Below the pieces are notes generated by a model. The model saw only the letters and a list, made by a program, of their open reading frames with translations. It ran no database searches and was not told where the DNA came from. From a virus (Duplodnaviria; Heunggongvirae; Uroviricota; Caudoviricetes; Demerecviridae): a DNA stretch of 64,000 nucleotides. Positions 14,214-64,000 of this stretch are shown piece after piece. The position numbers and the translations under genes were made by a program. Positions within the stretch are counted from its first letter, which is position 1; every line of letters begins with the position of its first letter. The stretch is from the IMG/VR virus record IMGVR_UViG_3300042566_001359, one strand, 5' to 3'.

Positions 14214-14216
14214 TCA

Positions 14217-15905: not shown

Positions 15906-15993
15906 GCTTATATACAATACAACAACTTGTATCTCAAACTGTTTCTCCGGTACCGCAGCAATCTGCTATATCTTAAAACTATAAAGGACACTT

Positions 15994-16254: not shown

Positions 16255-16271
16255 AGGTTTAGGAGAACACA

Positions 16272-17410: not shown

Positions 17411-17413
17411 ATT

Positions 17414-18280: not shown

Positions 18281-18281
18281 A

Positions 18282-19184: not shown

Positions 19185-19193
19185 GGAATTCCT

Positions 19194-19445: not shown

Positions 19446-19456
19446 TTTAAAAACAC

Positions 19457-53676: not shown

Positions 53677-53753
53677 TGGTACGCCGAACAGGACTTGAAC
53701 CTGTGACCAACGGCTTATGAGGCCGCTGCTCTGACCAACTGAGCTATCAGCGC
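53677..53753 (-). tRNA. tRNA-Met/Ile2 (anticodon CAT)
   Basis: manual cloverleaf: acceptor GCGCUGA/UCGGCGU, loop CUCAUAA, T-loop UUCAAGU, encoded CCA. Confidence 0.8.
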
Positions 53754-54271: not shown

Positions 54272-54567
54272 TAGTATTGCTGCCAGCTAGTATCGCCACC
54301 AACACGATAACCATCGTGCTTGTCTGGGTCGTAGTCCTGGAAACTACCTTCAATGTCGTCGCTATAAGACTCCGAATCTTCATCAAAGTCTGGTTCGTCA
54401 CAGTATTCTGAATATGGGTAAATGCCGTATGCCTCTGCATTTTCTTTGGCACGCTCCCAGCACAACTCATTGAGTTCATCATCAGTTGCATCAGGTGACA
54501 CTTCCCAGAACTCGTGACTATCCATGCCGCAATAGCCAGTATGTAAAAACAATACAATTTTACGCAT
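54271..54567 (-). CDS. Acidic hypothetical protein
   Basis: 98 aa. Confidence 0.45.
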   Translation of the reverse strand: MRKIVLFLHTGYCGMDSHEFWEVSPDATDDELNELCWERAKENAEAYGIYPYSEYCDEPDFDEDSESYSDDIEGSFQDYDPDKHDGYRVGGDTSWQQY

Positions 54568-54575
54568 ATGATTCC

Positions 54576-54932
54576 TTAGATACTAACAGTTTGTGGTTGT
54601 GGCACAGTCAATTCTGCGCCTTCCAAGCACGCAAACAAAAATGTCTTGCCTGGGTTTAGTTTTGCCAAACGACGGCACTCACTACGAGCATCTGCACGGT
54701 AATTGTGTACAACAGGTACAGCACTAAAACTAAGGCCTACATTTGGTTGGTAGCTGCCAACAATATATCGTTTGTTGCGAACAGCTTCGTGTGCGGAATT
54801 TTGATTGTCAATTGTTTTTGGTGTCATATTAATTTGATTTAGTTCATTTATTTCGTTAAGTTTCATAATATCGTTTCTCATGTTACCTAGTATGCTGGAT
54901 AACACGATAGCTTCATCGCTGTCTGAATTCAT
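54576..54932 (-). CDS. Hypothetical protein
   Basis: 118 aa. Confidence 0.5.
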   Translation of the reverse strand: MNSDSDEAIVLSSILGNMRNDIMKLNEINELNQINMTPKTIDNQNSAHEAVRNKRYIVGSYQPNVGLSFSAVPVVHNYRADARSECRRLAKLNPGKTFLFACLEGAELTVPQPQTVSI

Positions 54933-55002
54933 AATGAAAAATCCCCTAAAGAAGTATATATTATACTCAATTTAGGGGATTTGTTCAAGACTAAATTTTC
55001 AG
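54933..55002. promoter_or_regulatory. Hairpin AAATCCCCTAAA...TTTAGGGGATTT enclosing the conserved TATATTATAC promoter core
   Basis: 11-bp inverted repeat flanking the GTATATATTATAC motif upstream of ORF 54576..54932. Confidence 0.45.
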
Positions 55003-55006
55003 TGTT

Positions 55007-55081
55007 TGGTACATCCTGACAGTTTCGAACTGCCGACCCTCTCGGTGTAAACGAGACGCTCTACCACTGAGCTAAGGATGC
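55007..55081 (-). tRNA. tRNA-Val (TAC)
   Basis: loop UUUACAC, T-loop UUCGAAA, encoded CCA. Confidence 0.85.
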
Positions 55082-55086
55082 AATAT

Positions 55087-55160
55087 TGGAGCGAGGTACC
55101 GGGATCGAACCGGTCTCACCAACTTGGAAGGATGGGGCACAACCACTATACCAACCCCGC
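55087..55160 (-). tRNA. tRNA-Gly (TCC)
   Basis: loop CUUCCAA, one stem mismatch, encoded CCA. Confidence 0.75.
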
Positions 55161-55164
55161 ATTA

Positions 55165-55392
55165 TTATTTTCGTTTTTCAGCACCAATTCGTGATGCTTT
55201 GTTCCAGTCATAGGCAACACCGTCTGGGCATGTTCCATTTTCTATGGCATCTACGCCAAATATGCCTACAATTTCTATTGTGCCGTTTGTGATTGTCACA
55301 AACTCGTCCACATACTTGGCCATTTCTAGGGCCAGAGCTAAGTCTTCTGTTCGACCTCTTAGCAGGCCTTCGTTGTCTATTACTTTATACAT
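55165..55392 (-). CDS. Hypothetical small protein
   Basis: 75 aa between tRNA genes. Confidence 0.4.
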   Translation of the reverse strand: MYKVIDNEGLLRGRTEDLALALEMAKYVDEFVTITNGTIEIVGIFGVDAIENGTCPDGVAYDWNKASRIGAEKRK

Positions 55393-55398
55393 ATAAGT

Positions 55399-55474
55399 TG
55401 GTGCGGGCTACAGGGTTCGAACCTGCGACATCCTCGTTGGCAACGAGGTGCTCTACCAACTGAGCTAAGCACGC
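55399..55474 (-). tRNA. tRNA-Gly (GCC)
   Basis: loop UUGCCAA, T-loop UUCGAAC, encoded CCA. Confidence 0.85.
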
Positions 55475-55475
55475 A

Positions 55476-55799
55476 TTAAAATGGGATATCGTCATCAAAA
55501 CTGGTATCGTAATCTTGACGACTGGCAATTTCTGCCAAGTATTCATATTTTTGGCCGTCCATGTAGGGGGCAACTTCTTCAGCTTGGTGAATTGTCCAAC
55601 GAGCAAAACTAGCTTGTTCTTGTATTAATTCAATGGCTTCTGGCTGAAATTTAACATAACCGGACTTTTCTGCCCATATTAAGTATTCGTAGTGATCTTG
55701 GGCTACATCACAGATTCTGCATCCGGCTAGCTTACCAAATGTAATTGTGTCTGTAATACCCAGTTTAGGGTTCTTGAGCTTACTAAAACCAATAGCCAT
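55476..55799 (-). CDS. Hypothetical protein (start at internal Met to clear tRNA)
   Basis: ORF 55476..55835. Confidence 0.4.
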   Translation of the reverse strand: MAIGFSKLKNPKLGITDTITFGKLAGCRICDVAQDHYEYLIWAEKSGYVKFQPEAIELIQEQASFARWTIHQAEEVAPYMDGQKYEYLAEIASRQDYDTSFDDDIPF

Positions 55800-55963
55800 T
55801 ACCAGTGCCTCCACACACCTGCTACAATAAAGCAATTTGTGCCTATATAGCTGAGTACAATTATGGTTCGGATTATGGCTACCACGTCAGCCTCACAGTT
55901 ATTTTTTCCGGCTTTGGCGCCGAGGGCATTTGCCCAAAGTGTCCAAACTTTTTTCATGGTTTG

Positions 55964-56055
55964 TGGCGGGTGGCAGAGGAGTCGAACCCCATCCCGTTTC
56001 CGAGAACCTGGTTTTCAAGGCCAGTCGCAGGACCAACCCCGCTGCATTACCACCC
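55964..56055 (-). tRNA. tRNA-Ser (TGA), type II with long variable arm
   Basis: anticodon arm CUGGC-CUUGAAA-ACCAG resembles E. coli tRNA-Ser(UGA); variable hairpin UCUCG-GAAA-CGGGA; encoded CCA. Confidence 0.75.
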
Positions 56056-56060
56056 ACTGT

Positions 56061-56654
56061 TTATTCTTTGGCTGCGTCAGTTTCCTGTGCGCGAGCTGCC
56101 TGCAACTTTTCCAGTCGCTGTGCAACTTCGTCACTGGTCATCCAAATGTCTTTGTTGTGCAACATGCTGGAAATTTCTTCACTGGTTAAAAAGTCTTTGT
56201 ATACCGCACTCATAAAGTTTTCAGACCAACGACGTTCAAATTGCAGTTGATCGTACATTTCACCGCCTTTGCCAAATGTTCCAGCACTATAGTTGTGAAA
56301 CATAAAAAGACTGTGCGGTGTGATTTCGTGTGCATGACCGTGTAAGAAGATCATGGTGGCTGCACTCATGCAAGCGCCTTCAACACTGGTAACAATAGTT
56401 GCTTCTGTGTCCGACATTACTCGCAAGAACTGTAGTGTGGTATACAGGTCACCACCAGGCGAGTTGATATAAATACGAATAGTATCTACTTCGGATGCAT
56501 TGCGAATGCAATCAAACCACTCAATGTATTCTTCAGCATCTAGCACAGGGCCGCTTAGGTAAAACTCATGAAGCTGTGCAACTGGCTTTGAAAAGCTATT
56601 TGTGTACTTTTCAGGTTGAAACAATTTAGGGTCGAGATAATTGTCTTTGTTCAT
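56061..56654 (-). CDS. ClpP-like serine protease
   Basis: INSPGG motif, Ser in GACMSAA, His in FMFHN; 197 aa. Confidence 0.75.
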   Translation of the reverse strand: MNKDNYLDPKLFQPEKYTNSFSKPVAQLHEFYLSGPVLDAEEYIEWFDCIRNASEVDTIRIYINSPGGDLYTTLQFLRVMSDTEATIVTSVEGACMSAATMIFLHGHAHEITPHSLFMFHNYSAGTFGKGGEMYDQLQFERRWSENFMSAVYKDFLTSEEISSMLHNKDIWMTSDEVAQRLEKLQAARAQETDAAKE

Positions 56655-56669
56655 GCGTTCCTTTAATAT

Positions 56670-56742
56670 AATTAAGCACTCTAGCTAGCCGTGGAGCCCT
56701 TGCTGTTATGCGCGGTGGGGTTTTAACCCAAAAGTGCTTAAT
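56670..56742. repeat. Perfect 12-bp inverted repeat TAATTAAGCACT...AGTGCTTAATTA directly upstream of ClpP-like gene
   Basis: direct reading. Confidence 0.8.
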
Positions 56743-57136
56743 TATATTTGCCAGCTTATTCTGTTACGAGGGAAGCCGAGCGAGAAACCCTAAGCAGTTT
56801 TTAAGCTGCTAGTGCGTACGTTTGATCGTTTGCGTTTATTTTTGTTTTGTGTCTGCGGCCAGGTAGAGCGTCTTTTTGTGCTATATGCACAACGACTACA
56901 CTTTGCCCCCAACCCTACGGCTTCTACATTGCCGAGTTGTCTACTTTGCTACTCTTAGCCCGGTCGATCCTGTGTCAGGCCCATCAAAAGCATACTACTA
57001 GCATATAAGCTAAAAGAGCCGATCCTTCCAACCGCTGTCGGCCACCCTTTGGGTAGGGTAATATACTTATGGTGGACCTGGCGGGCACTGCCCCCGCGTG
57101 TCGAACTCTTTTGGGTCTGCTTCATACAACCATATT

Positions 57137-57215
57137 TTAGCACACTAACGGACATGCGTCGTAACCACTTTCTAAGCCTGTGCACAGGCAGTGGGCTTCT
57201 AGTATGCTAAAATAT
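57137..57215. repeat. Inverted-repeat hairpin element A1 (CCATATTTTAGCACACTAAC...50 nt...TAGTATGCTAAAATATGG) abutting tRNA-Thr CCA end; spacer contains palindrome GCCTGTGCACAGGC
   Basis: direct reading; arm sequence ~85% identical to element at 63522..63632. Confidence 0.8.
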
Positions 57216-57290
57216 GGTGCCGGTTGCATGAATCGAACACGCGACCTTCTCGTTACAAGGGAGTTGCTCTACCAACTGAGCTAAACCGGC
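57215..57290 (-). tRNA. tRNA-Thr (TGT), weak anticodon stem
   Basis: perfect acceptor, D and T arms; anticodon loop CUUGUAA closed by only 3 bp. Confidence 0.65.
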
Positions 57291-57327
57291 ATTAATTGAC
57301 TATTTATTCCGCCGCCCGTCAATTAAG

Positions 57328-57404
57328 GGAACTACTGGAGTCGGTGACAGGATTCGAACCTGCATAATACGGATTTGCAATCCGTGGCCTAGCCGTTCAG
57401 CTAC
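57328..57404 (-). tRNA. tRNA-Cys (GCA)
   Basis: ACGGA-UUGCAAA-UCCGU anticodon arm, perfect acceptor, encoded CCA. Confidence 0.8.
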
Positions 57405-57413
57405 ACACCGACA

Positions 57414-57617
57414 TTAAATTTGTTGAGTACTTATACAAGTCTCAAAACCGTTCCACAGTCGCTCAAACTTCATTTGATACATTTGCTTGAGTCCGATCAA
57501 GTAGTTCATACGTTGATCTTCGTCCATGTTGTCATACATATCTAGATACAACTGAATGTCGTCAGTTACATTCCAGCATTGCATGATATTTTGTTCTAGG
57601 TCAAAGCGATCGCTCAT
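57414..57617 (-). CDS. Hypothetical small protein
   Basis: 67 aa. Confidence 0.4.
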   Translation of the reverse strand: MSDRFDLEQNIMQCWNVTDDIQLYLDMYDNMDEDQRMNYLIGLKQMYQMKFERLWNGFETCISTQQI

Positions 57618-57618
57618 T

Positions 57619-58146
57619 TTAAGCCAATATAAATTTTAAACGGTCAGCAGCATAGCTTGCTGCAAAAGCATTTGGTTTTACTTGAGCATCTACGTTACAA
57701 GTGCCCTTGATATAACCAATAGCCTGCTGCACAACACAGCTAGAGCCGTACAGTAGGTTTGGGTTAATATCCAAGTGAACTTCAACGTGACGATCTTGTA
57801 ACACATCACTTAGTTCATGAAATAGGTCCGAAACCTTGTAAACTTCTTGCATTAACCTGAGTGCGGGTTTAGATACACGTTGATCAAAGTCGCGTTCACG
57901 ACTAATGCTACCAAAAATTTTGCAACCGTGATTGCCGTCAATGTGTACTACAACTGCTAAGGTATAGTCAGCGTGCCATACACCATTAACTTTAACACGT
58001 TCGCTATCCGCACCAAGATAAACCTTTGTTTCTGCGCTCTGTGCTTGAATGAAGTCTTTGACTTCTTGTAAGTTAAATTCGTGCATAGTTGTGGTTGTGT
58101 AAAGTATATTATGGTAGGCCCTGAGAGAATCAAACTCCCACTTCAA
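57619..58146 (-). CDS. Hypothetical protein
   Basis: 175 aa. Confidence 0.5.
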   Translation of the reverse strand: MKWEFDSLRAYHNILYTTTTMHEFNLQEVKDFIQAQSAETKVYLGADSERVKVNGVWHADYTLAVVVHIDGNHGCKIFGSISRERDFDQRVSKPALRLMQEVYKVSDLFHELSDVLQDRHVEVHLDINPNLLYGSSCVVQQAIGYIKGTCNVDAQVKPNAFAASYAADRLKFILA

Positions 58147-58168
58147 CGTTCGTAGCGTTGTGTAATAT

Positions 58169-58762
58169 TCATTTTACTAAAGGCCTATTGTCTAGTTCTA
58201 CGGCAATATCTAAAAATATCTTATCACTATTTATTCTGTGAATGTACGCATGGTGTGTAGGACATAAATATACTAAGTTAGATAGGTCATTATTATACCT
58301 ATTCTCATCTATATGATGTACGTCTAGTATTAGGTTTTCTTCACATGAACAGCATTTAATTTTAAGATCGTTGTCTTTATAAAATCTATTTAAATACTCT
58401 ACGTAGCTATAGCTTCCGTCTTTCCTGTTTTTTGCCCCTTGAGTATGAGCAAAAAACTTATTACCACAGTTATAAGAGCATGTAGTCGGCTCTTTACCAG
58501 AAGATAAAAACTCAAATTCATTGTTACACTGTGGGCAAACTTTACTAATTAATTTAGCAGGCTCTTTGCCGTTAGCTGTAAAGTGAGAAGTACTAATATT
58601 GTGTAAAAGACAATAGTCTTTTATCATCTTACCGTACCTGTAGTTTTTGGAATAACCTAATGCTTGTGCAACTATTACGGCAGCGTGAGCGTTAGATATT
58701 AGTTCTAGTAGTTCTCCAGATTTATGGCTATCTTCTAAAACTTTTAAAAATGTTGTTGACAT
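58169..58762 (-). CDS. HNH homing endonuclease
   Basis: DVHHIDENRYNNDLSNLVYLCPTHHAYIH HNH motif plus Cys4 zinc ribbon. Confidence 0.8.
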   Translation of the reverse strand: MSTTFLKVLEDSHKSGELLELISNAHAAVIVAQALGYSKNYRYGKMIKDYCLLHNISTSHFTANGKEPAKLISKVCPQCNNEFEFLSSGKEPTTCSYNCGNKFFAHTQGAKNRKDGSYSYVEYLNRFYKDNDLKIKCCSCEENLILDVHHIDENRYNNDLSNLVYLCPTHHAYIHRINSDKIFLDIAVELDNRPLVK

Positions 58763-58840
58763 AAACTTTCCTATGTATAAGCTATATTATACAATAAAAG
58801 CATTTAAAAGTCAATCGAAAATTTTTTGAACTACCAAAAT

Positions 58841-58914
58841 TGGCAGAGGATAGAAGAATCGAACTTCTGACAACGGAATCAAAATCCGTGGTTATACCAT
58901 TTAACTAATCCCCA
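58841..58914 (-). tRNA. tRNA-Gln (TTG)
   Basis: ACGGA-UUUUGAU-UCCGU; D-stem GUUA/UAAC; U1-U72 terminal mismatch. Confidence 0.7.
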
Positions 58915-58922
58915 ACAAAACT

Positions 58923-58996
58923 GGCTCCACAGGCAGGGATCGAACCTACGACCAATTGATTAACAGTCAACTGCACTACCGCTGTGCTACTGTGGA
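58923..58996 (-). tRNA. tRNA-Asn (GTT)
   Basis: GUUGA-CUGUUAA-UCAAU, T-loop UUCGAUC, encoded CCA. Confidence 0.85.
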
Positions 58997-59000
58997 ATAC

Positions 59001-59092
59001 TTAATACTAGCGCCCGGTACGCCATCCCCGAGTGAGCTTCAGTGGCAGAGAAGGATGCCACTTACACACTATAGCGCATTCTCGCTAGTATT
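59001..59092. repeat. Perfect 12-bp inverted repeat TTAATACTAGCG...CGCTAGTATTAA enclosing 68 nt, between tRNA-Asn and tRNA-Asp
   Basis: direct reading. Confidence 0.8.
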
Positions 59093-59188
59093 AAATATGC
59101 TGCTTACGATATACAGCGTGACATTGTCGTAGTCACCGATTGGATTACGGACGCTCTAACCGGAACGGCACGGACCTAAGGCAGGTTT

Positions 59189-59263
59189 TGGCGGTCTAGA
59201 GGGGTAACGATCCCCTTCTACAGCAGTGACAGTGCTGTGTGCGTCCATGAACACTTCTAAACC
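59189..59263 (-). tRNA. tRNA-Asp (GTC)
   Basis: CAGCA-CUGUCAC-UGCUG, T-arm AGGGG-AUCGUUA-CCCCU, acceptor GGUUUAG/CUAGACC, encoded CCA. Confidence 0.8.
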
Positions 59264-59268
59264 ATATT

Positions 59269-59353
59269 TGGTACCCCCACCCGGACTCGAACCGGGAAGC
59301 CGAAGCGAGGCATTTTAAGTGCCTTGTGTTTACCAGGATTTCACCATAGGGGC
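59269..59353 (-). tRNA. tRNA-Leu (TAA), type II
   Basis: AGGCA-CUUAAAA-UGCCU; variable hairpin GC-UUCG-GC; encoded CCA. Confidence 0.8.
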
Positions 59354-59358
59354 ATATT

Positions 59359-59444
59359 TGGTGGAGAAGGAGGGGATCGAACCCACTTGCCTCTTGAGGC
59401 CACGGATTTACAATCCGCTGTCCTACCATTAGAACATCTTCTCC
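59359..59444 (-). tRNA. tRNA-Tyr (GTA), type II
   Basis: GCGGA-UUGUAAA-UCCGU; long variable arm; perfect acceptor GGAGAAG; encoded CCA. Confidence 0.8.
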
Positions 59445-59495
59445 GTTTAAAGAATAATTATACCGCAAATAGCAAATCACGGCAAATCTAAATTT

Positions 59496-59570
59496 TGGCA
59501 CCCCTCCAGGGACTCGAACCCTGACCAACGGTTTTGGAGACCGCGATGCTGCCAATTACACCAAAGAGAT
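59496..59570 (-). tRNA. tRNA-Trp (CCA)
   Basis: GCGGU-CUCCAAA-ACCGU as in E. coli tRNA-Trp; acceptor with three G-U pairs. Confidence 0.75.
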
Positions 59571-59595
59571 AAAATGCTTGGAATTATGCGTTACA

Positions 59596-59700
59596 GAGTT
59601 TTGTCGGGCTTTCACACCCGGTGCCATACCACTTGGCGAATTTCCCAATGGGAGATAAAAGAATCGAACTTTTGATGAAACTGTAACTATCGCCAAAGCA
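59596..59700 (-). ncRNA. tRNA-like module (perfect T-arm AAAAG-UUCGAUU-CUUUU and acceptor-like helix UUGGCGA/UCGCCAA enclosing an extra hairpin); candidate Y-RNA-like / Ro60-associated RNA
   Basis: manual folding; no anticodon arm; lies 250-350 nt 3' of the Ro60 homologue on the same strand. Confidence 0.35.
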
Positions 59701-59943
59701 ATAATAATAAAAAACCTTAGAACAACTATTGCAGCGATTTGGTTAGATTAGAAGTCTAGAAGTAACTGCAAAAAACACTAAAGGCTTAGAATAAGACTAG
59801 AAAAAGCAACGCGGGTATTTGTTTTTCAAACCATATTGAGAAGTAACCGCATCTAGCACTAAGTCCTATTCTAAGCCTTCGCTTAGAGCCCCACTCTCTC
59901 GCTCTGACCGGCTGGCTACGGTTCCTAGCGTGGGTTAGTATTA

Positions 59944-61320
59944 TTAAAGCACTTCTGCTTCGAGGGCTTGAATGTAATCAATCACAGCTTCGGAGAAACC
60001 AGTAATGGTTTCCCACTCAGCACTGTTGATGCCATTCTGATAAGAACCAACGTTCAGGATGTAGTTTTTGTCACGGGACAAACGCTTGGCTTTGTGAGGT
60101 TCGAAACCTCGGCCACCTGTGTCTTGTTCATCTGTAAACACGATTACTCGGTCTACAAAATTATCATGTTCTTGGCTGGCGATATAGTCCATAGCTTGCA
60201 CTAAGAAGATACCGCCACCGCCGATACGACGGCCGACCTCTGCACTGCGGATGTAGTCGCTGAGTGCAAAACCACGTCGATTTGGAATCAACATAGTTGC
60301 ATGTTTGCGAGTACCATCATTACCGGCTGTTGCGTAGATAACTACTTCTTCGCAGATTTCTCGTGCCAAGATAGCCAGTGAACAAGCAGCATCAAGACGA
60401 GAAATCTCGCTTTTAGCGCTTATTGTTTGCCCCATAGAGCCGCTAGTGTCAACCACCAAAACTGTACGTCCTGGTAGTTTAGCTTGTGTTGACAAGCTTG
60501 CTAGCATCATGCGCTCAAGCATACCCTCAAATTGAGGGACTTGACGGGCCGCAGAAATGTACCGGAAAGGCAACACTTTTGAAGCGTCAATGGTTTTTGA
60601 GTAAGCCTCAATCTCGGACTGAGAAATACCTGCTTGAGTCATGTTACGCAAGTTACGTAAGAATGCTAGTGCACCCAATTTGTTTTCACGCATAAGACGT
60701 GAGAATGTTTCAAGCTTATCAGCGCCCGCACTTAGTTGAGTTTCCCAGGTATCTGGAGTTTCCAACTTGTCTTCAGCAATTCGTTTGAATAGCTCGGCTT
60801 GCACAGCCGTTTGCGGTTTAGGGTGGCTCAGGAACATAACATCACGCAAGCGAATCGCTGCTGAGTTTTTGTCCCACTTGGCCAGCTGATACTCGCTGAA
60901 CTTGTTAAAACAAGCAGCAAGACCACGTTTAACCTGATTGCTCAGGGCTGACTTGCCGTCTTTCCAGTAAATGCTCAGGAATTCAGACATTTCGTCTGGA
61001 CGCTGAATAACACTGGTAAGGGCATTTGCTTGTAGTTTACCGTGACGTGCGAGTTCACGAACAAGCAGCAGAGGAACGTGACGAAGTTTGAACTTAGTAC
61101 GAGCCTCTAGTGCTAGTGCGGCAACCCGATCAGGGTTCACACTAGCTACCACGCTTTTAATCAGTTCAGCATGGCTTTTTCCATCAACATAAAACTGGTC
61201 TTCCCACAGCATTGCTGCCAGGGTCAAGCGACGCAGTTGTCGTTCTGGATTAATAGTGCGTACTGGAGTACCAACACTGTTAACAGTCATTGAAGCGGAT
61301 TTGCGATTAATCGCGGACAT
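59944..61320 (-). CDS. rsr: Ro60-like TROVE-domain protein with C-terminal von Willebrand A domain (Rsr homologue)
   Basis: 458 aa; N-terminal region with TROVE-like pattern (R.L...FY.DG...RTKFKLRHVPLLLVRELA); C-terminal MIDAS motif LVVDTSGSM; RBS AAGGA 8 nt upstream. Confidence 0.7.
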   Translation of the reverse strand: MSAINRKSASMTVNSVGTPVRTINPERQLRRLTLAAMLWEDQFYVDGKSHAELIKSVVASVNPDRVAALALEARTKFKLRHVPLLLVRELARHGKLQANALTSVIQRPDEMSEFLSIYWKDGKSALSNQVKRGLAACFNKFSEYQLAKWDKNSAAIRLRDVMFLSHPKPQTAVQAELFKRIAEDKLETPDTWETQLSAGADKLETFSRLMRENKLGALAFLRNLRNMTQAGISQSEIEAYSKTIDASKVLPFRYISAARQVPQFEGMLERMMLASLSTQAKLPGRTVLVVDTSGSMGQTISAKSEISRLDAACSLAILAREICEEVVIYATAGNDGTRKHATMLIPNRRGFALSDYIRSAEVGRRIGGGGIFLVQAMDYIASQEHDNFVDRVIVFTDEQDTGGRGFEPHKAKRLSRDKNYILNVGSYQNGINSAEWETITGFSEAVIDYIQALEAEVL

Positions 61321-61349
61321 GGATTTTTCCTTGTAAATAAGTAAGAACT

Positions 61350-61450
61350 AGGCGAAACAGAGATTTTAGCGCTCTACCAACTGAGCTACTCGACACACTA
61401 AAGTGCCAGAGGATGGACTCGAACCACCGACCTCTCGTTTAACAGACGAA
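61350..61450 (-). ncRNA. Circularly permuted tRNA-like element (T-arm, loop-closed acceptor hairpin, D-arm) flanked by bulged helix; candidate YrlA-type Y RNA immediately 5' of rsr
   Basis: minus-strand order: AAACGAGAGG / GGUGG-UUCGAGU-CCAUC / CUCUGGCAC-UUUAGU-GUGUCGAGU / GCUC-AGUUGGUA-GAGC / CUCU(U)GUUU pairing back to the 5' strand. Confidence 0.5.
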
Positions 61451-61705
61451 GTAACTGTTTCTTTCACTATACCTAAATTAAACACACTGGCTAAGAATCT
61501 GCGAAAGCAGTTCTTGGAATTGTTTAGCGTCTACATCGCCTAAGACGTTTGCACGGTTTAAAGTGTGTGGCTACCACAATTTGTGTGCCACAAGGGCATA
61601 CAGCTTTAGTATGAAGTAACTGACTTCTATCACTATAGCCAAAGTGTTTAATTTAAGTATAAATTATATCAAATATAACTTACACTGGCAAGTTTGTATT
61701 TTTAG

Positions 61706-61780
61706 TGGTGGACATAGCAGGATTCGAACCGGCGACCTAGGCCGTATGAAGACCGTGCACTACCACTGTGCTATATGTCC
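61706..61780 (-). tRNA. tRNA-Met/Ile2 (CAT), second copy
   Basis: acceptor GGACAUA/UAUGUCC perfect; loop UUCAUAC; T-loop UUCGAAU; encoded CCA. Confidence 0.75.
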
Positions 61781-62167
61781 AGGTGCCGGTTACATTCTCC
61801 GGCGGCACATTTCGTTGTGTCTGAAGACATTGACGCTGTTTAAAGTCCGCAAGGGGGCATAGTCTGTAGCCATTAGGTAAACAGATACCTTTACTTGTGT
61901 GTTATTTTTGTGTCAGGAAACATCAAACCCCGTGAGAGCAGCCCATCTTGTTTTCGCTTCAGCGGACGCAGGGTGGTCAATATACTTACCACTGATTACA
62001 AGCCTGCAAATGACAATGTAGCGTGGTGCTTATATCCACACATAGACGGGATACACCGGCGAGTTTCCTCAGATAAGCAATCGTATCTATTGTCAAAAAT
62101 ATGGTGGCGAGCCAATGCCAGGTTTACCAGCTCACTATGCGGCTGCAGAAGTGCTGGAGGGCTAATT

Positions 62168-62238
62168 TGGTTGCGGGGGAAGGACTCGAACCTTCTAAGC
62201 GGAGCTTATGAGACTTGCTTCTACCCTGACTCCCCGCG
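62168..62238 (-). pseudogene. Degenerate tRNA-like gene (intact acceptor and T-arm, no canonical D / anticodon arms; CAU-containing loop)
   Basis: GAAGG-UUCGAGU-CCUUC T-arm and CGCGGGG/CCCCGCA acceptor with CCA, but only 36 nt between acceptor and T-arm. Confidence 0.4.
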
Positions 62239-62244
62239 ATATTT

Positions 62245-62399
62245 TAGTAGTAGCCGTGGAATTCGTTTTTGTAACGAAACCAGGTACGCTCTAGCTCTTT
62301 TAACTGTGACCAAGTTTGTGGATTGTTGTCGGTGACAAAATCTTCAAAGCTATAAGGTTGCAGAGCTTTTTGTAGCTGAGCCAGTAAATCACTTAGCAT
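62245..62399 (-). CDS. Small hypothetical protein (51 aa, below ORF-track threshold)
   Basis: my own translation MLSDLLAQLQKALQPYSFEDFVTDNNPQTWSQLKELERTWFRYKNEFHGYY. Confidence 0.25.
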
Positions 62400-62664
62400 T
62401 CACAAACTCATAGAATTGCTTTGATTTGGCCAGTACTTCTCCAAAGTCAAAAGGCTTGGGCATAAACTTGGCAATCATTTCGGAAGTGTTTTGACCTTTG
62501 CTGGCCAGACTTTCTTGCATTTCGGTAATGAACTCCATGTTGGAGGCGTACTCAGCTTGCATTAGCTCTGCGGTCATTTTCAAGATTTCAAGACGAATCT
62601 CAAAAGGTGATTTATTACTCATTGTAGTTCCTGTGTTGTGATGTGTAAGGTGTAGGCTTTTCAC
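62389..62664 (-). CDS. Hypothetical protein
   Basis: 91-aa ORF. Confidence 0.45.
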   Translation of the reverse strand: MKSLHLTHHNTGTTMSNKSPFEIRLEILKMTAELMQAEYASNMEFITEMQESLASKGQNTSEMIAKFMPKPFDFGEVLAKSKQFYEFVNAK

Positions 62665-62715
62665 CTACTTGGAGCGTTATTTCAGCTCATGTTTGGTACT
62701 GAGGGAGGAAGTGTT

Positions 62716-62789
62716 TGGTACCCAGTAGAGGTATCGATCCTCTGATTAACGCTTATCAAGCGTTTGTTATACCATTTAACTAACCGGGC
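62716..62789 (-). tRNA. tRNA-Ile (GAT)
   Basis: AACGC-UUGAUAA-GCGUU; encoded CCA. Confidence 0.8.
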
Positions 62790-62794
62790 GTATT

Positions 62795-62869
62795 TGGTAC
62801 TCCGAACGGGTTTCGATCCCGCTTCTCCAACTTGAAAGGCTGGCGTCCTAGCCACTAGACGACCGGAGT
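62795..62869 (-). tRNA. tRNA-Glu (TTC)
   Basis: CCAGC-CUUUCAA-GUUGG; T-loop AUCGAAA; encoded CCA. Confidence 0.8.
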
Positions 62870-62918
62870 GTTTGCGTAAAGATTAATTATACAGAGATTA
62901 GGCTGCGTGTTCAAGACA

Positions 62919-63048
62919 ATATTTATAAGTTTAACCCTAACCACGGGCGAGTATGAGTCGAGACGTGGGCCTATAGCAACTACTAGGTGGATTAGTCCGT
63001 TCGTAAAGGATTGGTAATCACTCCAACTTAGGGTCAAACTTATAAATA
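62919..63048. repeat. Inverted-repeat hairpin element B (ATATTTATAAGTTTAACCCTAA...88 nt...TTAGGGTCAAACTTATAAATA) abutting tRNA-Phe CCA end
   Basis: 21-bp arms with one mismatch. Confidence 0.75.
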
Positions 63049-63050
63049 CT

Positions 63051-63126
63051 TGGTGCAACCTACAGGAATCGAACCTGTTTCCATCGCTCTTCAGGCGACC
63101 GCTATGACCACATCAGCTAAAGTTGC
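63051..63126 (-). tRNA. tRNA-Phe (GAA)
   Basis: GUCGC-CUGAAGA-GCGAU; perfect acceptor GCAACUU; encoded CCA. Confidence 0.85.
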
Positions 63127-63129
63127 TTA

Positions 63130-63342
63130 AAATACTGGATTTTGTGCTTGCCATGTTTCTGCTTCATGACCATCACAGTCAATACGCCAAGGGCAAGTAC
63201 TGAGAATTTGTGTTGAGCAATCGTCGTTACCCCAGCATACTGGAGGTTGAGTACCACGCAAGACTTTAATCTGCTTGTGCACTAAGTCACGACGATTTGC
63301 TAGATTGGCTTCTTTGTCTAGCAATACTTGAATTTCAGTCAT
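63130..63342 (-). CDS. Small Cys-rich protein (start at internal Met to clear tRNA-His)
   Basis: CWGNDDCSTQILSTCPWRIDCDGHE. Confidence 0.35.
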
Positions 63343-63351
63343 ATAAACCTT

Positions 63352-63426
63352 TGGGCAGTCGTTACGGATTCGATCCGTTCCTACGAGTTTCACAGACTCG
63401 GGTGCTTCCACTACACTAAACGCTGC
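63352..63426 (-). tRNA. tRNA-His (GTG)
   Basis: CGAGU-CUGUGAA-ACUCG; 5' G pairing with C before CCA (G-1-like); bulged A in acceptor. Confidence 0.75.
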
Positions 63427-63431
63427 ATATT

Positions 63432-63518
63432 TGGCGGGAGATACAGGAATCGAACCTGTCAGCCTATTTCTAAACGAAGGCTTAGCAAGCCTCTGTTGCA
63501 CCTTGCAACACATCTCCC
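63432..63518 (-). tRNA. tRNA-Ser (GCT), type II
   Basis: GAGGC-UUGCUAA-GCCUU; long variable arm; acceptor GGGAGAU; encoded CCA. Confidence 0.8.
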
Positions 63519-63521
63519 AGT

Positions 63522-63632
63522 ACCATATTTGAGCATACTAACATCCACTTTTCGAACTTGTACTTTGTTCGCGAATACGTGTAGTCTTGCAAAACCAGTG
63601 GTTGAACGCCAACTGTTAATATGCTCAAATAT
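63522..63632. repeat. Inverted-repeat hairpin element A2 (CCATATTTGAGCATACTAAC...70 nt...GTTAATATGCTCAAATATGG) between tRNA-Ser(GCT) and tRNA-Lys-like
   Basis: 20-bp arms, 1 mismatch; spacer has TTCGCGAA palindrome. Confidence 0.8.
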
Positions 63633-63635
63633 GGT

Positions 63636-63704
63636 AGGACTGAAGGGTAACGATCCCTTTTCTACTGGTTAAAAGCCAGTTGCTTCACCTTAAAGCTTCA
63701 ATCC
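63636..63704 (-). tRNA. tRNA-Lys (TTT)-like, short and irregular (possible pseudogene)
   Basis: ACUGG-CUUUUAA-CCAGU anticodon arm, AGGG-AUCGUUA-CCCU T-arm, D-stem GCUU/AAGC, acceptor closes only with 1-nt register shift. Confidence 0.5.
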
Positions 63705-63837
63705 CATTAACCGCCCCAACCTTCTCGGTTAAGTTTTCCGCGCAATTGCTTGTGCGATTTTTTATGAGAACCACTGCCGCCACGCTTCATCAAAGCTAAG
63801 GCTACGTGATTCCTAGGTTTTCGTGTTTTCATAATAA

Positions 63838-63915
63838 ACTTTAAATTTGGTGGAGAATATCGGATTCGAACCGATCTGTGTCCTGCTTGCAAAGCAGGTG
63901 TCCACCCCAAGCAGA
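63838..63915 (-). tRNA. tRNA-Ala (TGC)
   Basis: CCUGC-UUUGCAA-GCAGG; T-loop UUCGAAU; acceptor GGGGAAU/AUUCUCC; encoded CCA. Confidence 0.8.
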
Positions 63916-63921
63916 CCCATT

Positions 63922-64000
63922 CCCCAAATTGTGGTGCGTCGAGAGAGACTCGAACTCTCAATCCTTTCGGCACTGGCTTCTAAGACCAGCGTGTATACCA
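63922..64000 (-). tRNA. tRNA-Leu (TAG), type II, 5' part beyond window end
   Basis: CUGGU-CUUAGAA-GCCAG, variable arm, GAGAG-UUCGAGU-CUCUC, ...ACCA end. Confidence 0.7.

What the first reader, a model, noticed from the sequence alone, without database searches (positions are those of the whole stretch)
59571..61705. Ro60 (TROVE-vWA) homologue inside a phage tRNA island, preceded by a circularly permuted tRNA-like RNA, i.e. a candidate phage-encoded Ro60/Y-RNA module
What the sequence shows:
- ORF 59944..61320 (minus) has a TROVE-like N-terminal region and a C-terminal vWA MIDAS motif (VVDTSGSM), the domain pair of Ro60/Rsr.
- Immediately 5' of its start (61350..61450, same strand) the RNA folds as T-arm (GGUGG-UUCGAGU-CCAUC), then an acceptor-like hairpin closed by a loop (CUCUGGCAC-UUUAGU-GUGUCGAGU), then a D-arm (GCUC-AGUUGGUA-GAGC).
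- That unit is flanked by two strands, AAACGAGAG and CUCU(U)GUUU, that pair into a bulged helix where an anticodon stem would be.

This is the architecture described for bacterial YrlA-type Y RNAs: a tRNA mimic whose anticodon stem is replaced by the Ro-binding helix, encoded next to rsr. Ro60/Y-RNA modules are known from a few bacteria and mycobacteriophages. I am not aware of a description in a T5-like phage tRNA island.

A second tRNA-like module (59596..59700), a long imperfect hairpin (59777..59876) and a long-range inverted repeat (61488..61502 with 61643..61657) are further candidate Y-RNA parts.
Basis: partly seen in the sequence, partly recalled or inferred. Interest (0 to 1): 0.85.

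Follow-up and report, generated by a model that had tools for sequence, protein, structure and literature searches.

The report
Phage Ro60 gene with five Y RNAs
A distant T5-like phage carries, inside its tRNA gene cluster, a gene for the ring-shaped RNA-binding protein Ro60 flanked by five small structured "Y RNA" genes, two of which mimic tRNA; this kind of module is already known from bacteria and a few phages, so it is a well-supported new example and not a new kind of system.

Summary
ORF 59944-61320(-) is a Ro60/Rsr homologue: Pfam TROVE is above its cut-off, the AF2 model's top 13 PDB matches are all Ro60, and the MIDAS DTSGS motif is present. The element just upstream (61475-61338) is a YrlA-type, T-before-D tRNA mimic. 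Across 23 relatives 97.9% of cells pair and 17 of 19 pairs show changes on both sides.

Corrections:
The real closing helix is GAAACAG (61461-61455) with CUGUUUC (61360-61354).
- The locus holds five units, not one, all sharing one Ro-binding-type stem module: Y2, Y1, Ro60, Y3, Y4, Y5.
- The module is less novel than claimed. YrlA was reported in 22 phages (Chen 2014), Thermus phage phiLo Ro60 binds two phage Y-like RNAs (NAR 2025), and Bas63 gp130 is Ro60-like next to tRNAs.

What is new: the lineage, a divergent RNA subfamily that the Rfam YrlA model scores below threshold, five-unit arrays, and anticodon-arm-like hairpins that fit the dimeric-tRNA origin model. Expression and binding are untested.

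The parts
61663..61691 (-). Sigma-70-like promoter candidate (TTGCCA-17-TGnTATAAT, 11 of 12) between tRNA-Met and Y2. It could drive the whole Y2-Y1-Ro60-Y3-Y4-Y5 block.
   Evidence: This is a consensus match only. The count in the region (5) is not above shuffles (3.9 +/- 2.1), so its function is inferred.
61468..61661 (-). Y2: a long Y-like unit without a tRNA domain. Outer stem 26-27 bp (61661-61636 with 61493-61468); 5' motif AGUGAUAG (61634-61627); inner helix 61626-61620 with 61510-61504; UUACUUC 61619-61613; 102-nt insert with a conserved hairpin.
   Evidence: Orthologue alignment A6 has 11 of 28 pairs with changes on both sides. R1 gives only 17.1 bits (E=0.48), so support rests on the motif scan and the orthologues.
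61338..61475 (-). Y1: YrlA-type tRNA-mimic Y RNA. Outer helix 61475-61470 with 61343-61338; bulged U 61469; AGUGAAA 61468-61462; inner helix 61461-61455 with 61360-61354; UUACUUC 61454-61448; V (anticodon-arm-like) hairpin 61448-61436, loop CUGUUAA; 2-bp stem 61435-61434 with 61369-61368; variable loop AGGUC 61433-61429; T-arm 61428-61412; acceptor-like hairpin 61411-61389; D-arm 61386-61371; 3' motif GCCUAGUUCU 61353-61344.
59944..61320 (-). Ro60/Rsr homologue, 458 aa: a TROVE (HEAT-repeat ring) domain plus a C-terminal vWA domain with MIDAS DTSGS (aa 291-295).
59780..59880 (-). Y3: short Y-like unit with a 19-bp outer stem (59880-59862 with 59798-59780). Motif AGUGCUA; inner helix GAUGCGG/CCGCGUU; UUACUUC 59846-59840; 25-nt insert (small hairpin plus an A-rich strand).
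   Evidence: R2, built without any window sequence, gives 43.6 bits, E=1.2e-10.
59712..59787 (-). Y4: short Y-like unit. Outer helix AAGCCUU/AAGGUUU; motif AGUGUUU; inner helix UUUGCAG/CUGCAAU; UUACUUC 59765-59759; 24-nt insert. It is followed by a U-run. Its 5' outer strand overlaps the 3' strand of Y3's stem.
Evidence: R2 gives 38.3 bits, E=4.8e-9.
59573..59702 (-). Y5: second tRNA-like unit. Outer helix AUUGCUU/AAGCAUU; motif GGCGAUA; inner helix GUUACAG/CUGUAAC; UUUCAUC in place of UUACUUC; T-arm AAAAG-UUCGAUU-CUUUU; short acceptor-like hairpin; D-arm GCCA-AGUGGUA-UGGC; an extra hairpin after the D-arm (5 bp, 6-nt loop). It ends 3 nt before tRNA-Trp (59570-59496).
   Evidence: R1 31.9 bits, E=1.3e-4; 7 orthologues, 10 of 32 pairs with changes on both sides; R2 E=0.025.

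Best explanation
The block 61691-59573 (minus strand) is a phage-encoded Ro60 ribonucleoprotein module: one Ro60 ring protein gene and five Y RNA genes.

Each Y RNA pairs its 5' and 3' ends into the same conserved stem. The stem consists of a variable outer helix, an invariant bulged U, an R:Y pair, GYG opposite UUC, an asymmetric internal loop, and a 7-bp inner helix followed by UUACUUC.

By analogy with characterised Ro60/Y RNA systems, this stem carries a degenerate form of the GNCGAA motif and is the Ro60-binding site. The variable part beyond it would be the effector module. In Y1 and Y5 that part is a T-before-D tRNA mimic. In Y2-Y4 it is other hairpins.

The effector module would recruit or sequester a partner, such as host PNPase or tRNA-recognising enzymes. 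Ro60 would thereby be directed to remodel, degrade or protect structured RNAs, plausibly tRNAs, during infection.

The RNAs are probably transcribed together with the Ro60 gene and the neighbouring tRNAs, and then cut out by host RNases.

Shown here: the protein is a Ro60 homologue by sequence and predicted fold; the five RNAs are conserved, covarying structures with YrlA architecture; RNA and protein genes are tightly linked across many phages.

Inferred: expression and processing, Ro60 binding, the partner proteins and the biological role.
For: Protein:
- TROVE scores 50.8 bits against a cut-off of 23; PHROG 850 'RNA-binding protein' 2.5e-39 over the full length.
- The only PDB sequence hits are phiLo Ro60 (E=3.6e-19, aa 24-454).
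- The AF2 model has pLDDT 84.4 and pTM 0.77. Its top 13 Foldseek PDB hits are all Ro60/Rsr (TM 0.72 to phiLo, 0.66 to Rsr).
- D291, S293 and S295 are invariant in the 27-sequence alignment.
- 7640 of 8000 scored candidates reach E<=1e-10; all 120 listed hits carry TROVE.

RNA Y1:
- Rfam YrlA gives a full-length match, 27.2 bits, E=0.0046.
- RNAalifold on a plain MAFFT alignment recovers the T, acceptor-like and D helices; 12 of 14 pairs show changes on both sides.
- On the 23-sequence model alignment, 97.9% of cells pair, against 28-47% when the partner is slid; 17 of 19 pairs show changes on both sides; 0 of 500 shuffles reach the observed values.
- U8, A14, G18, A21, G53-A58 and C61 are invariant; the Levitt pair is G:C in 17 and A:U in 2.

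Shared stem:
- Own versus foreign strand test for the inner helix: 60% versus 5.9% near-perfect, with 62 distinct helices.
- R:Y pair: G-C 39, A-U 38, G-U 1, mismatches 2 of 80. The outer helix scores 6.1 of 7 with its own partner against 2.7 with foreign ones.
- 22 short units on a MAFFT alignment: 93.4% paired, 16 of 18 pairs with changes on both sides.
- R2, built without window sequences, finds Y3 (E=1.2e-10) and Y4 (E=4.8e-9) and nothing else significant in the 64 kb.

Linkage:
- Arrays of units flank Ro60 in most of the 38 loci chosen by protein.
- Among loci chosen by the RNA motif alone, 25 of 28 with a full unit have Ro60 on the same strand within 25-1250 nt. The off-register control gave 2 of 48.
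- The cultured Xylella phage Usme has three R1 hits (94.5, 53.6 and 43 bits) upstream of its Ro60, and Rfam YrlA reaches 50 bits there.

Precedent:
- Y RNAs tether Ro60 to PNPase in D. radiodurans, and YrlA is encoded within 4 kb of Ro60 on the same strand (PMC4201824).
- phiLo Ro60 binds two phage Y-like RNAs and host PNPase (PMC12135203).
Against: - There are no expression, processing or binding data.
- The curated Rfam YrlA model is far below its gathering score here (27.2 against 69), and below it in all 38 relatives and in Usme, where the best score is 50.
- The published 5' motif GNCGAAN0-1G is not matched exactly in the window. Y1 has AGUGAAAG and Y5 has GGCGAUAG.
- Pfam vWA_Ro60 and VWA_2 are below their cut-offs on this protein.
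- No individual promoters or terminators were found for the units.
- Y1 ends 17 nt before the Ro60 start codon, so a purely cis role cannot be excluded for that copy.
- No RtcB or other RNA-repair gene is nearby. The bacterial rsr-yrlBA-rtcBA context is therefore absent.
Confidence: 0.8

Rival explanations
1. The five units are cis-acting elements of one polycistronic tRNA/Ro60 transcript, not stable trans-acting Y RNAs. They would be processing sites (for example, RNase III cutting the 19-27-bp stems) and/or Ro60-binding operators through which Ro60 autoregulates its own mRNA.
For: - Y1 ends 17 nt upstream of the Ro60 start codon, and the ribosome-binding site follows its outer helix directly.
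- Y2 and Y3 have long, conserved stems of 26-27 and 19 bp.
- The 3' strand of each long stem overlaps the 5' strand of the next unit, as expected for ordered or alternative folding.
- Only one good promoter-like site precedes the block, and no unit has its own terminator.
Against: - Units occur upstream, downstream, or 1-3 kb away from Ro60 and between tRNAs in different phages. That does not fit a leader or operator role.
- Bacterial Y RNAs are also co-transcribed with rsr and then processed (PMC4201824), so co-transcription does not distinguish the two models.
- The tRNA core is invariant at positions needed only for an L-shaped fold.
- The two roles are not mutually exclusive.
Confidence: 0.1
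2. The tRNA-like units act mainly as tRNA decoys, independently of Ro60. Sitting in a tRNA island, they would soak up host tRNA-targeting defence nucleases or modification enzymes. The Ro60 gene would be a neighbour with a separate role.
For: - About 19 of 23 Y1-type RNAs keep a 7-nt loop of the form C-U-NNN-A-A on a short stem that can stack into a 5-bp anticodon-like arm.
- The full tRNA core is conserved.
- The location is a T5-like tRNA island.
- Bas63 gp130, which is Ro60-like and lies next to tRNAs, was reported to counter a defence system (PMC11482910).
Against: - All five units, including three with no tRNA domain, share the same conserved stem module. That only makes sense as a common protein-binding site.
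- The motif is linked to a Ro60 gene on the same strand in 25 of 28 motif-selected loci.
- The acceptor end is closed by a loop and has no CCA.
Confidence: 0.06
3. The tRNA-like elements are decaying remnants of tandem tRNA genes (pseudo-tRNA dimers) with no function, and their similarity to Y RNAs is superficial.
For: - The T-before-D order is what a tRNA-tRNA junction gives. R1 also produces weak partial hits at real tRNA junctions in the window (58881-58970, 55057-55114, 63392-63479).
- ARAGORN calls no tRNA here, and the Rfam tRNA model scores 23.5 against a cut-off of 29.
Against: - Changes on both sides of pairs occur in every helix, including long-range ones that no tRNA junction has.
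- The structure is conserved across Ro60 proteins only 25-89% identical, and in phages with no tRNA island, such as Usme.
- Real junction hits are partial (model positions 34-117 or 55-108) and weak.
Confidence: 0.02

Closest known systems
Salmonella Typhimurium Rsr with YrlA and YrlB (Rfam RF02553; Chen et al. 2014, PMC4201824; Wang et al. 2018, bioRxiv 10.1101/312249)
   Same: - A Ro60 gene with more than one Y RNA gene on the same strand, close by.
- One RNA type carries a tRNA mimic in the order V, T, acceptor-like hairpin closed by a loop, D. Another type lacks the tRNA domain.
- The 5' and 3' ends pair; there is a GNCGAA-like 5' motif and a conserved YUAY (here UUAC).
- The tRNA tertiary-contact nucleotides are conserved.
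   Different: - The Rfam model scores only 27 bits here and at most 50 in the relatives tested, against a gathering score of 69.
- The 5' motif is degenerate (RGYGNWAG).
- There are five RNAs instead of two.
- The V hairpin has an anticodon-loop-like 7-nt loop, whereas S. Typhimurium YrlA is described as lacking an anticodon loop.
- There are no rtcBA RNA-repair genes.
- The host is a phage and the location is a tRNA island.
Thermus phage phiLo Ro60 with Yrl1 and Yrl2 (PMC12135203; PDB 9KOP, 9L5Y)
   Same: - A phage-encoded Ro60 with phage-encoded Y-like RNAs next to the gene.
- It is the closest solved structure to this protein (TM 0.72; phmmer E=3.6e-19).
- The RNAs have a stem-bulge-stem design with a CGAA-type motif.
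   Different: - Protein identity is only about 22-23%.
- The phiLo study searched for Y RNA-like sequences near the gene using structural considerations and the CGAA motif, and reports two upstream (Yrl1, Yrl2). Here there are five RNAs on both sides of the gene, two of them with full tRNA mimicry.
- The phiLo RNAs have been shown to bind Ro60 and host PNPase in vitro. Nothing has been tested here.
Mycobacteriophage Ro60 with YrlA (Chen et al. 2014: 22 phages)
   Same: Phage Ro60 with YrlA-type RNAs within 4 kb on the same strand, detected with covariance models.
   Different: - Those RNAs were found with the published YrlA covariance models (E<0.00005). These are sub-threshold for the Rfam model.
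- The host range and phage lineage differ. Actinobacteriophage Ro-like proteins are only about 25-28% identical to this one.
- I could not read Chen's supplementary phage table.
Deinococcus radiodurans Rsr/Yrn1/PNPase (RYPER)
   Same: It provides the mechanistic template: the Y RNA stem binds Ro60 and the other end tethers an exoribonuclease. Yrn1 also has a T-loop-like element and an 'anticodon arm' with a 5-bp stem and a 6-nt loop, like the extra hairpin of Y5.
   Different: The order of the arms differs, and Yrn1 has no full D-arm. Whether these phage RNAs bind PNPase is unknown.
E. coli phage Bas63 gp130 (PhageMaP preprint, PMC11482910)
   Same: A Ro60-like phage protein directly adjacent to a run of tRNA genes. 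The authors speculate that some of the annotated 'tRNAs' are Y RNAs. An anti-defence phenotype was reported (it counters ppl).
   Different: The Bas63 protein was called Ro60-like by structure. I did not see it among the rows I examined of the 98 tblastn hits. No Y RNAs were defined there.

Membership tests
Ro60/Rsr protein family (TROVE + vWA) | TROVE domain detected above the curated threshold | tested here: met
   Pfam PF05731 scores 50.8 bits against a cut-off of 23, although only aa 185-279 align. All 120 listed homologues carry PF05731.
Ro60/Rsr protein family (TROVE + vWA) | Full-length fold: an alpha-helical (HEAT-repeat) domain followed by a vWA domain, as in solved Ro60 structures | tested here: met
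   AF2 pLDDT 84.4, pTM 0.77. The top 13 Foldseek PDB hits are all Ro60/Rsr over about 470-560 aligned columns, TM 0.59-0.72. I did not inspect ring closure itself.
Ro60/Rsr protein family (TROVE + vWA) | C-terminal vWA domain with a MIDAS motif (DxSxS) | tested here: met
   D291-T-S293-G-S295 is present and invariant in 27 homologues. A beta-alpha-beta region at 282-440 follows the helical domain. The Pfam vWA models are below cut-off on this sequence (VWA_2 23.5 against 27; vWA_Ro60 16.7 against 27.7) but are recorded for many close homologues.
Ro60/Rsr protein family (TROVE + vWA) | Binds Y RNA and misfolded RNA | not testable with these tools
   Needs RIP/CLIP or gel-shift experiments.
YrlA-type Y RNA (Rfam RF02553; Chen 2014) | Encoded within about 4 kb of a Ro60 gene on the same strand | tested here: met
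   Y1 ends 17 nt upstream of the Ro60 start codon. All five units lie within 0.4 kb of the gene on the minus strand. The same holds in 25 of 25 motif-selected loci that have both a full unit and a Ro60 gene.
YrlA-type Y RNA (Rfam RF02553; Chen 2014) | T stem-loop 5' of D stem-loop, with an acceptor-like stem-loop between them | tested here: met
   for Y1; for Y5. Both sides of pairs change in all three helices.
YrlA-type Y RNA (Rfam RF02553; Chen 2014) | Conserved tRNA tertiary-contact nucleotides, including the 15:48 Levitt pair | tested here: met
   U8, A14, G18, A21, G53, U54, U55, C56, G57, A58 and C61 are present in 23 of 23, and G19 in 22 of 23. The 15:48 pair is G:C in 17, A:U in 2 and A:C in 3.
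YrlA-type Y RNA (Rfam RF02553; Chen 2014) | 5' and 3' ends pair into a stem that carries the Ro-binding motif | tested here: met
   Inner helix. Outer helix and R:Y pair.
YrlA-type Y RNA (Rfam RF02553; Chen 2014) | 5' motif GNCGAAN0-1G | tested here: inconclusive
   Window Y1 has AGUGAAAG (two mismatches) and Y5 has GGCGAUAG (one). The family consensus is RGYGNWAG. Exact matches occur in some relatives, for example GGCGAAG in L024 and GGCGAAUGG in L025.
YrlA-type Y RNA (Rfam RF02553; Chen 2014) | Conserved YUAY preceding or beginning the V region | tested here: met
   In UUAC, the second U, the A and the C are present in 23 of 23 Y1-type RNAs. UUAC is also present in Y2-Y4. Equating it with Chen's YUAY is my inference from its position.
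YrlA-type Y RNA (Rfam RF02553; Chen 2014) | Reaches the Rfam gathering score (69 bits) | tested here: not met
   27.2 bits in the window. There is no gathering-level hit in the 38 relatives. The best score is 50 bits, in phage Usme. I therefore file these RNAs as a divergent YrlA-like subfamily, not as RF02553 members by the curated threshold.
YrlA-type Y RNA (Rfam RF02553; Chen 2014) | Bound by Ro60; carries tRNA modifications (pseudouridine 55, dihydrouridine) in vivo | not testable with these tools
   Experimental.
Canonical tRNA | Acceptor stem formed by free 5' and 3' ends; detected by tRNA finders | tested here: not met
   The acceptor-like stem is closed by a 6-nt loop. ARAGORN makes no call. 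The Rfam tRNA model scores 23.5 against a cut-off of 29 and covers only the 5' part.
Circularly permuted tRNA genes (algal/archaeal type) | The 3' half precedes the 5' half, and processing through a circular intermediate restores normal acceptor ends | tested here: not met
   The order is permuted. However, the ends lie in the anticodon-stem region and continue into a conserved, covarying 15-35-bp stem. The acceptor loop is only 4-6 nt in most relatives. That points to an RNA that stays permuted, not a tRNA precursor. Processing itself was not tested.

The most novel reading that the evidence does not exclude
These Y RNAs, embedded in a tRNA island, are close to the ancestral state of YrlA-type RNAs. 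On this reading they arose from tandem phage tRNA genes. Y1 still carries the anticodon arm of the upstream tRNA, with a C-U-NNN-A-A loop. Y5 carries an arm in the position of the downstream tRNA's anticodon arm. The phage would use the set of five as adaptors or decoys that point one Ro60 ring at different targets, in particular at host enzymes or defence nucleases that recognise the tRNA elbow or anticodon loop. The Ro60/Y-RNA module would then be a general phage counter-defence or tRNA-protection device.
Probability: 0.15. Interest if true: 0.8.

Novelty: new member of a known kind. Interest (0 to 1): 0.5.

Why it matters
Ro60/Y-RNA particles are conserved from bacteria to humans, where Ro60 is a major lupus and Sjögren autoantigen. 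What they do in bacteria, and even more so in phages, is still poorly understood.

This locus and its relatives offer several things:
- A large, diverse set of phage Ro60 genes, each with several co-evolving Y RNAs. There are at least 60 metagenomic loci here, plus isolated Xanthomonas/Xylella phages where the RNAs are not annotated.
- A sharply defined, covariation-supported candidate Ro60-binding module that can be mutated and tested directly.
- RNAs whose architecture fits the proposed origin of YrlA from tRNA dimers.
- Cultured systems in which the function could be tested, notably the Usme-like phages; crAss001 is only a weak candidate.

The locus also shows that the curated Rfam YrlA model scores these phage Y RNAs below threshold, so they are likely to be under-annotated in phage genomes.

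Tried and rejected
Rejected.
- TATAGT in 'GGTATAGTG' as a -10 box giving each unit its own promoter: rejected. The UA-GUG bases are part of the covarying stem module, and the outer helix 5' of them covaries, so it must be in the RNA.
- Extra units suggested by my loose scan (window 8532-8414, 8071-7962, 53610-53522 and others): not supported by R1, R2 with filters off or the strict two-strand scan.
- The second weak Rfam YrlA hit, 61651-61763 (16.1 bits, E=7.1): it overlaps the real tRNA-Met and is noise.
- Megablast of the region and of window 1-20000 against cultured phages: no match. NCBIfam: no hit.
- Rfam at the gathering threshold on the 38 relatives: no YrlA.
- First motif-first scan used the wrong spacing (N7 instead of N6), which was my error. 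I kept it as an off-register control and repeated the scan correctly.
- Literature I could not reach: Chen 2014's supplementary tables are not held, and the Sim et al. 2020 review is not held.
- RNA-repair context (RtcB or an RNA ligase) as in Salmonella: none found among the eight neighbouring ORFs I scanned.
- MAFFT-only alignment of distant Y1-type RNAs lost the long-range helices. I solved this with anchor-based tests and covariance-model alignment.

Full report
OBSERVATION

The ORF 59944..61320 on the minus strand encodes 458 aa and contains VVDTSGSM. It lies inside a run of 20 tRNA genes, all on the minus strand, spanning 53677-63925.

Immediately 5' of the ORF the minus strand reads: T-arm GGUGG-UUCGAGU-CCAUC, then a hairpin CUCUGGCAC-UUUAGU-GUGUCGAG, then UA, then D-arm GCUC-AGUUGGUA-GAGC. 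An MFE fold recovers these helices without any guidance.

THE PROTEIN

Pfam TROVE scores 50.8 bits against a cut-off of 23. The vWA models are just below their cut-offs. PHROG 850 'RNA-binding protein' matches over the full length at 2.5e-39.

A phmmer search of all PDB sequences returns only the Ro60 homologue of Thermus phage phiLo (9KOP/9L5Y, E=3.6e-19, aa 24-454).

An AlphaFold2 model built from a 27-sequence alignment is confident (pLDDT 84.4, pTM 0.77). Its 13 best Foldseek hits in the PDB are all Ro60/Rsr structures aligned over the full length: phiLo TM 0.72, D. radiodurans Rsr 0.66, Xenopus and human Ro60 about 0.6. The MIDAS residues D291, S293 and S295 are invariant among homologues.

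The family is large. 7640 of the 8000 scored candidates reach E<=1e-10. About 98 cultured-phage records encode a homologue, including crAss001, Xanthomonas/Xylella phages, Caulobacter, Brevundimonas, Rhizobium and Ralstonia jumbo phages, and actinophages. None of these is a T5-like phage. The exact protein is found only in metagenome assemblies.

The window's DNA polymerase is about 50% identical to those of the T5-like Vibrio phages pVp-1 and VPT02. Other window ORFs match phage tail, replication and nucleotide-metabolism families. 'Distant T5-like phage' is therefore a fair description.

THE UPSTREAM RNA (Y1)

At the gathering threshold Rfam finds nothing here. In E-value mode the YrlA model (RF02553) gives a full-length match at 61351-61461(-): 27.2 bits against a gathering score of 69, E=0.0046.

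I fetched 38 viral loci encoding relatives of the protein, at 25-89% identity. The same T-then-D arrangement recurs next to the Ro60 gene in about 22 of them.

RNAalifold on a plain MAFFT alignment of 24 such sequences recovers the T-arm, the acceptor-like hairpin and the D-arm. 12 of 14 pairs show changes on both sides.

A covariance model built from 12 of them (R1) finds full-length members in many loci outside the seed, at 50-87 bits. On the resulting 23-sequence alignment:
- 97.9% of cells pair, against 28-47% when the 3' partner is slid by 1-3 columns.
- 17 of 19 pairs show changes on both sides.
- None of 500 shuffles reaches the observed values.

The canonical tRNA core positions are invariant or nearly so: U8, A14, G18, G19, A21, G53, U54, U55, C56, G57, A58 and C61. 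The Levitt pair is G15:C48 in 17 sequences and A15:U48 in 2.

THE CLOSING HELIX

On the same alignment that pairing is 62% paired against a shuffled mean of 60.9%, with no excess covariation.

The conserved helix is GAAACAG (61461-61455) with CUGUUUC (61360-61354). It is 96% paired, and all 7 pairs show changes on both sides.

A 2-bp stem (61435-61434 with 61369-61368) joins the two strands just below the tRNA core. It covaries: A-U in 15 sequences and C-G in 6.

Between the closing helix and that stem lie the invariant strand UUACUUC and a small hairpin. In the window the hairpin is CGU-CUGUUAA-ACG.

FIVE UNITS, ONE STEM MODULE

Exact GUUACUUC occurs four times on the minus strand, and all four lie within 59766-61620.

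Anchoring on that motif shows a common layout: outer helix, bulged U, R, GYG, 3-4 nt, 7-bp inner helix, UUACUUC, variable insert, inner helix complement, 5-6 nt, UUCY, outer helix complement.

I tested the pairings without using pairing to define them:
- Units picked only by the 5' motif find a near-perfect complement of their own inner strand in 60% of 113 cases, against 5.9% for foreign strands. 62 distinct helix sequences are involved. 80 of the 95 units scoring at least 6 of 7 have their best own site followed by the independent UUCY motif.
- The base before GYG pairs with the last base of UUCY: G-C 39, A-U 38, G-U 1, mismatches 2 of 80.
- The preceding U is invariant in 78 of 80.
- The 7-bp outer helix averages 6.1 of 7 pairs with its own partner, against 2.7 with foreign partners and about 3 in shifted registers. 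56 distinct sequences are involved.
- On a MAFFT alignment of 22 short units, 93.4% of cells pair and 16 of 18 pairs show changes on both sides.

A second model, R2, was built from those short units with no window sequence included. Scanning the whole window on both strands with filters off, it finds Y3 (59791-59869, 43.6 bits, E=1.2e-10) and Y4 (59711-59788, 38.3 bits, E=4.8e-9). It then finds Y5 (E=0.025) and Y1 (E=0.85) as local matches across their inserts. No other hit reaches E<0.3.

The strict scan of both strands likewise gives exactly five units. Their coordinates are Y2 61661-61468, Y1 61475-61338, Y3 59880-59780, Y4 59787-59712 and Y5 59702-59573.

Y5 is a second tRNA-like unit (R1 31.9 bits, E=1.3e-4). 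Seven orthologues support its outer and inner helices, T-arm, acceptor-like hairpin, D-arm and an extra 5-bp hairpin after the D-arm.

Y2 has a 102-nt insert that is not tRNA-like, with one conserved, covarying hairpin. Its direct model support is the weakest of the five (R1 E=0.48).

COMPARISON WITH PUBLISHED YrlA FEATURES

Chen et al. 2014 (PMC4201824) define YrlA by these features:
- location within 4 kb of Ro60 on the same strand;
- a 5' GNCGAAN0-1G motif;
- a conserved YUAY at the start of a 'V' stem-loop upstream of T;
- then T, an acceptor-like stem-loop (AS) and D.

All are present here except an exact 5' motif. The window has AGUGAAAG in Y1 and GGCGAUAG in Y5. The family consensus is RGYGNWAG, and some relatives match exactly.

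I read UUAC as the YUAY, and the small hairpin as V. The Rfam model instead aligns its first helix to my inner helix and deletes its second. The motifs suggest a different register, in which Rfam P1 corresponds to GGYG/UUCC and Rfam P2 to my inner helix. This is an inference and remains unresolved.

By the curated threshold these RNAs are not RF02553 members. The best score among those tested is 50 bits, in phage Usme. By architecture they are YrlA-like.

ONE DIFFERENCE WORTH NOTING

In about 19 of 23 Y1-type RNAs the V hairpin has a 7-nt loop of the form C-U-N-N-N-A-A. Its 3-bp stem abuts the 2-bp stem, so the two can stack into a 5-bp arm: the geometry and loop signature of an anticodon arm.

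Wang et al. 2018 (bioRxiv 10.1101/312249) describe S. Typhimurium YrlA as lacking an anticodon loop. They also favour an origin of YrlA from dimeric tRNA transcripts.

Y1 has an arm where the upstream tRNA's anticodon arm would be. Y5 has an arm where the downstream tRNA's would be. Both sit in a tRNA array, which fits that model. This is inference only.

LINKAGE

The first 38 loci were chosen by protein, so I also chose loci by RNA motif. Of the 80 loci fetched, 40 encode a Ro60 homologue. Of the 28 with a complete unit by strict criteria, 25 do, always on the same strand and 25-1250 nt away.

An off-register pattern (N7, my mistake, kept as a control) gave 48 hits, of which 2 had Ro60.

In the cultured Xylella phage Usme, R1 finds three tRNA-like units (94.5, 53.6 and 43 bits) in an unannotated 700-nt gap upstream of its Ro60 gene. 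By eye there are two further units in the same gap. crAss001 shows only a weak hit.

EXPRESSION SIGNALS

The best sigma-70-like site in the region (TTGCCA-17-TGnTATAAT, 11 of 12) lies at 61691-61663(-), between tRNA-Met and Y2. No unit has its own promoter or terminator.

Y2 and Y3 have long outer stems of 26-27 and 19 bp. These are conserved and covary in relatives. The 3' strand of each overlaps the 5' outer strand of the next unit (Y1 and Y4).

I infer co-transcription followed by processing, possibly by RNase III at the long stems and RNase P at the adjacent tRNA-Trp. None of this has been shown.

MECHANISM AND RIVALS

The best-supported reading is a Ro60/Y-RNA ribonucleoprotein module. 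The shared stem is the Ro60-binding site, and the variable modules are effector or adaptor ends. This follows the precedents of D. radiodurans (Ro60-Y RNA-PNPase), S. Typhimurium, and phage phiLo, where Ro60, two phage Y-like RNAs and host PNPase form complexes in vitro (PMC12135203).

The rivals are a purely cis processing or autoregulatory role, Ro60-independent tRNA decoys, and decayed tRNA dimers. Each is weighed in the structured fields. The last is contradicted by the covariation evidence.

NOVELTY

The kind of system is known:
- Chen 2014 reported YrlA next to Ro60 in 254 bacteria and 22 phages.
- Iyer et al. 2021 (PMC7824862) note TROVE proteins in some jumbo phages.
- The phiLo study characterised a phage Ro60 with Y-like RNAs.
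- The PhageMaP preprint (PMC11482910) describes Bas63 gp130 as Ro60-like beside a tRNA run, and reports that it counters a defence system.

New here:
- the phage lineage, since no cultured T5-like phage in the collection carries the gene;
- the five-unit array;
- a precisely defined stem module supported by covariation;
- the anticodon-arm-like V hairpin;
- the fact that this RNA subfamily scores below the Rfam YrlA gathering threshold and is unannotated in the isolated phage records I inspected.

I rate it a new member of a known kind, with moderate interest.

Noticed in passing
window 56801-57131 (-) and 56061-56654 (-): A permuted tmRNA (Rfam RF04321, 91.3 bits) lies in the tRNA island, next to a ClpP-like protease ORF (PF00574, 48.9 bits). 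The same permuted tmRNA (87-116 bits) lies 2-4 kb downstream of Ro60 in many relatives (L001, L004, L007-L010, L012, L013, L015).
   Followed up: partly
L020 and L038, 47-368 (+): A bacterial class A RNase P RNA (148.8 bits, gathering score 100) is encoded on a viral contig of about 109 kb, inside the same tRNA/Y-RNA/Ro60 island.
   Followed up: no
L044 (Xylella phage Usme, LR743523.1) 3304-3927: About five Y-like units, three of them tRNA-like (R1 94.5, 53.6 and 43 bits), fill an unannotated 700-nt gap upstream of the Ro60 homologue of a cultured 43.7-kb phage. No tRNA is annotated, or found by Rfam at gathering level, in the 8.5-kb stretch I examined. The record annotates the protein only as 'hypothetical'.
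   Followed up: partly
L045 (Bacteroides phage crAss001, MH675552.1) 5314-6220: The 900-nt unannotated gap downstream of the TROVE gene gp96 contains a weak R1 hit (5406-5498, 19.8 bits) and a 144-nt match to the Rfam tRNA model (5588-5731, 46.6 bits) that the record does not annotate.
   Followed up: no
window 61493-61468 versus 61475-61468, and 59798-59780 versus 59787-59781: The 3' strand of the long outer stem of Y2 contains the 5' outer strand of Y1, and Y3 and Y4 show the same arrangement. The pairings are therefore mutually exclusive. The arrangement is conserved in relatives.
   Followed up: partly
window 61454-61448, 61367-61361, and the equivalent positions in all units: The invariant strand UUACUUC and an A-rich strand opposite it (AAAAUCU, or GAAAAC in short units) are conserved in both tRNA-like and short units, but they do not form a Watson-Crick helix. 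Their role is unknown.
   Followed up: no
window 63356-63424 (-) and 63935-64000 (-): The Rfam tRNA model finds one more tRNA (37 bits) that ARAGORN did not call, and a tRNA cut off by the end of the window.
   Followed up: no
window 58169-58762 (-) and 57619-58146 (-): An HNH endonuclease-like ORF and an RNaseH_like (PF04308) ORF are interspersed among the tRNA genes.
   Followed up: no
window 49631-50428 (-); L045 7586-8803: An SPFH/Band-7 protein gene lies within about 10 kb of the Ro60 gene in the window, and about 2.3 kb from the TROVE gene in crAss001 (gp91). This may be coincidence.
   Followed up: no
L032 6912-6996 (+): A match to the selenocysteine tRNA model (51.4 bits, gathering score 47) occurs on a viral contig that also carries a Ro60 homologue.
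   Followed up: no
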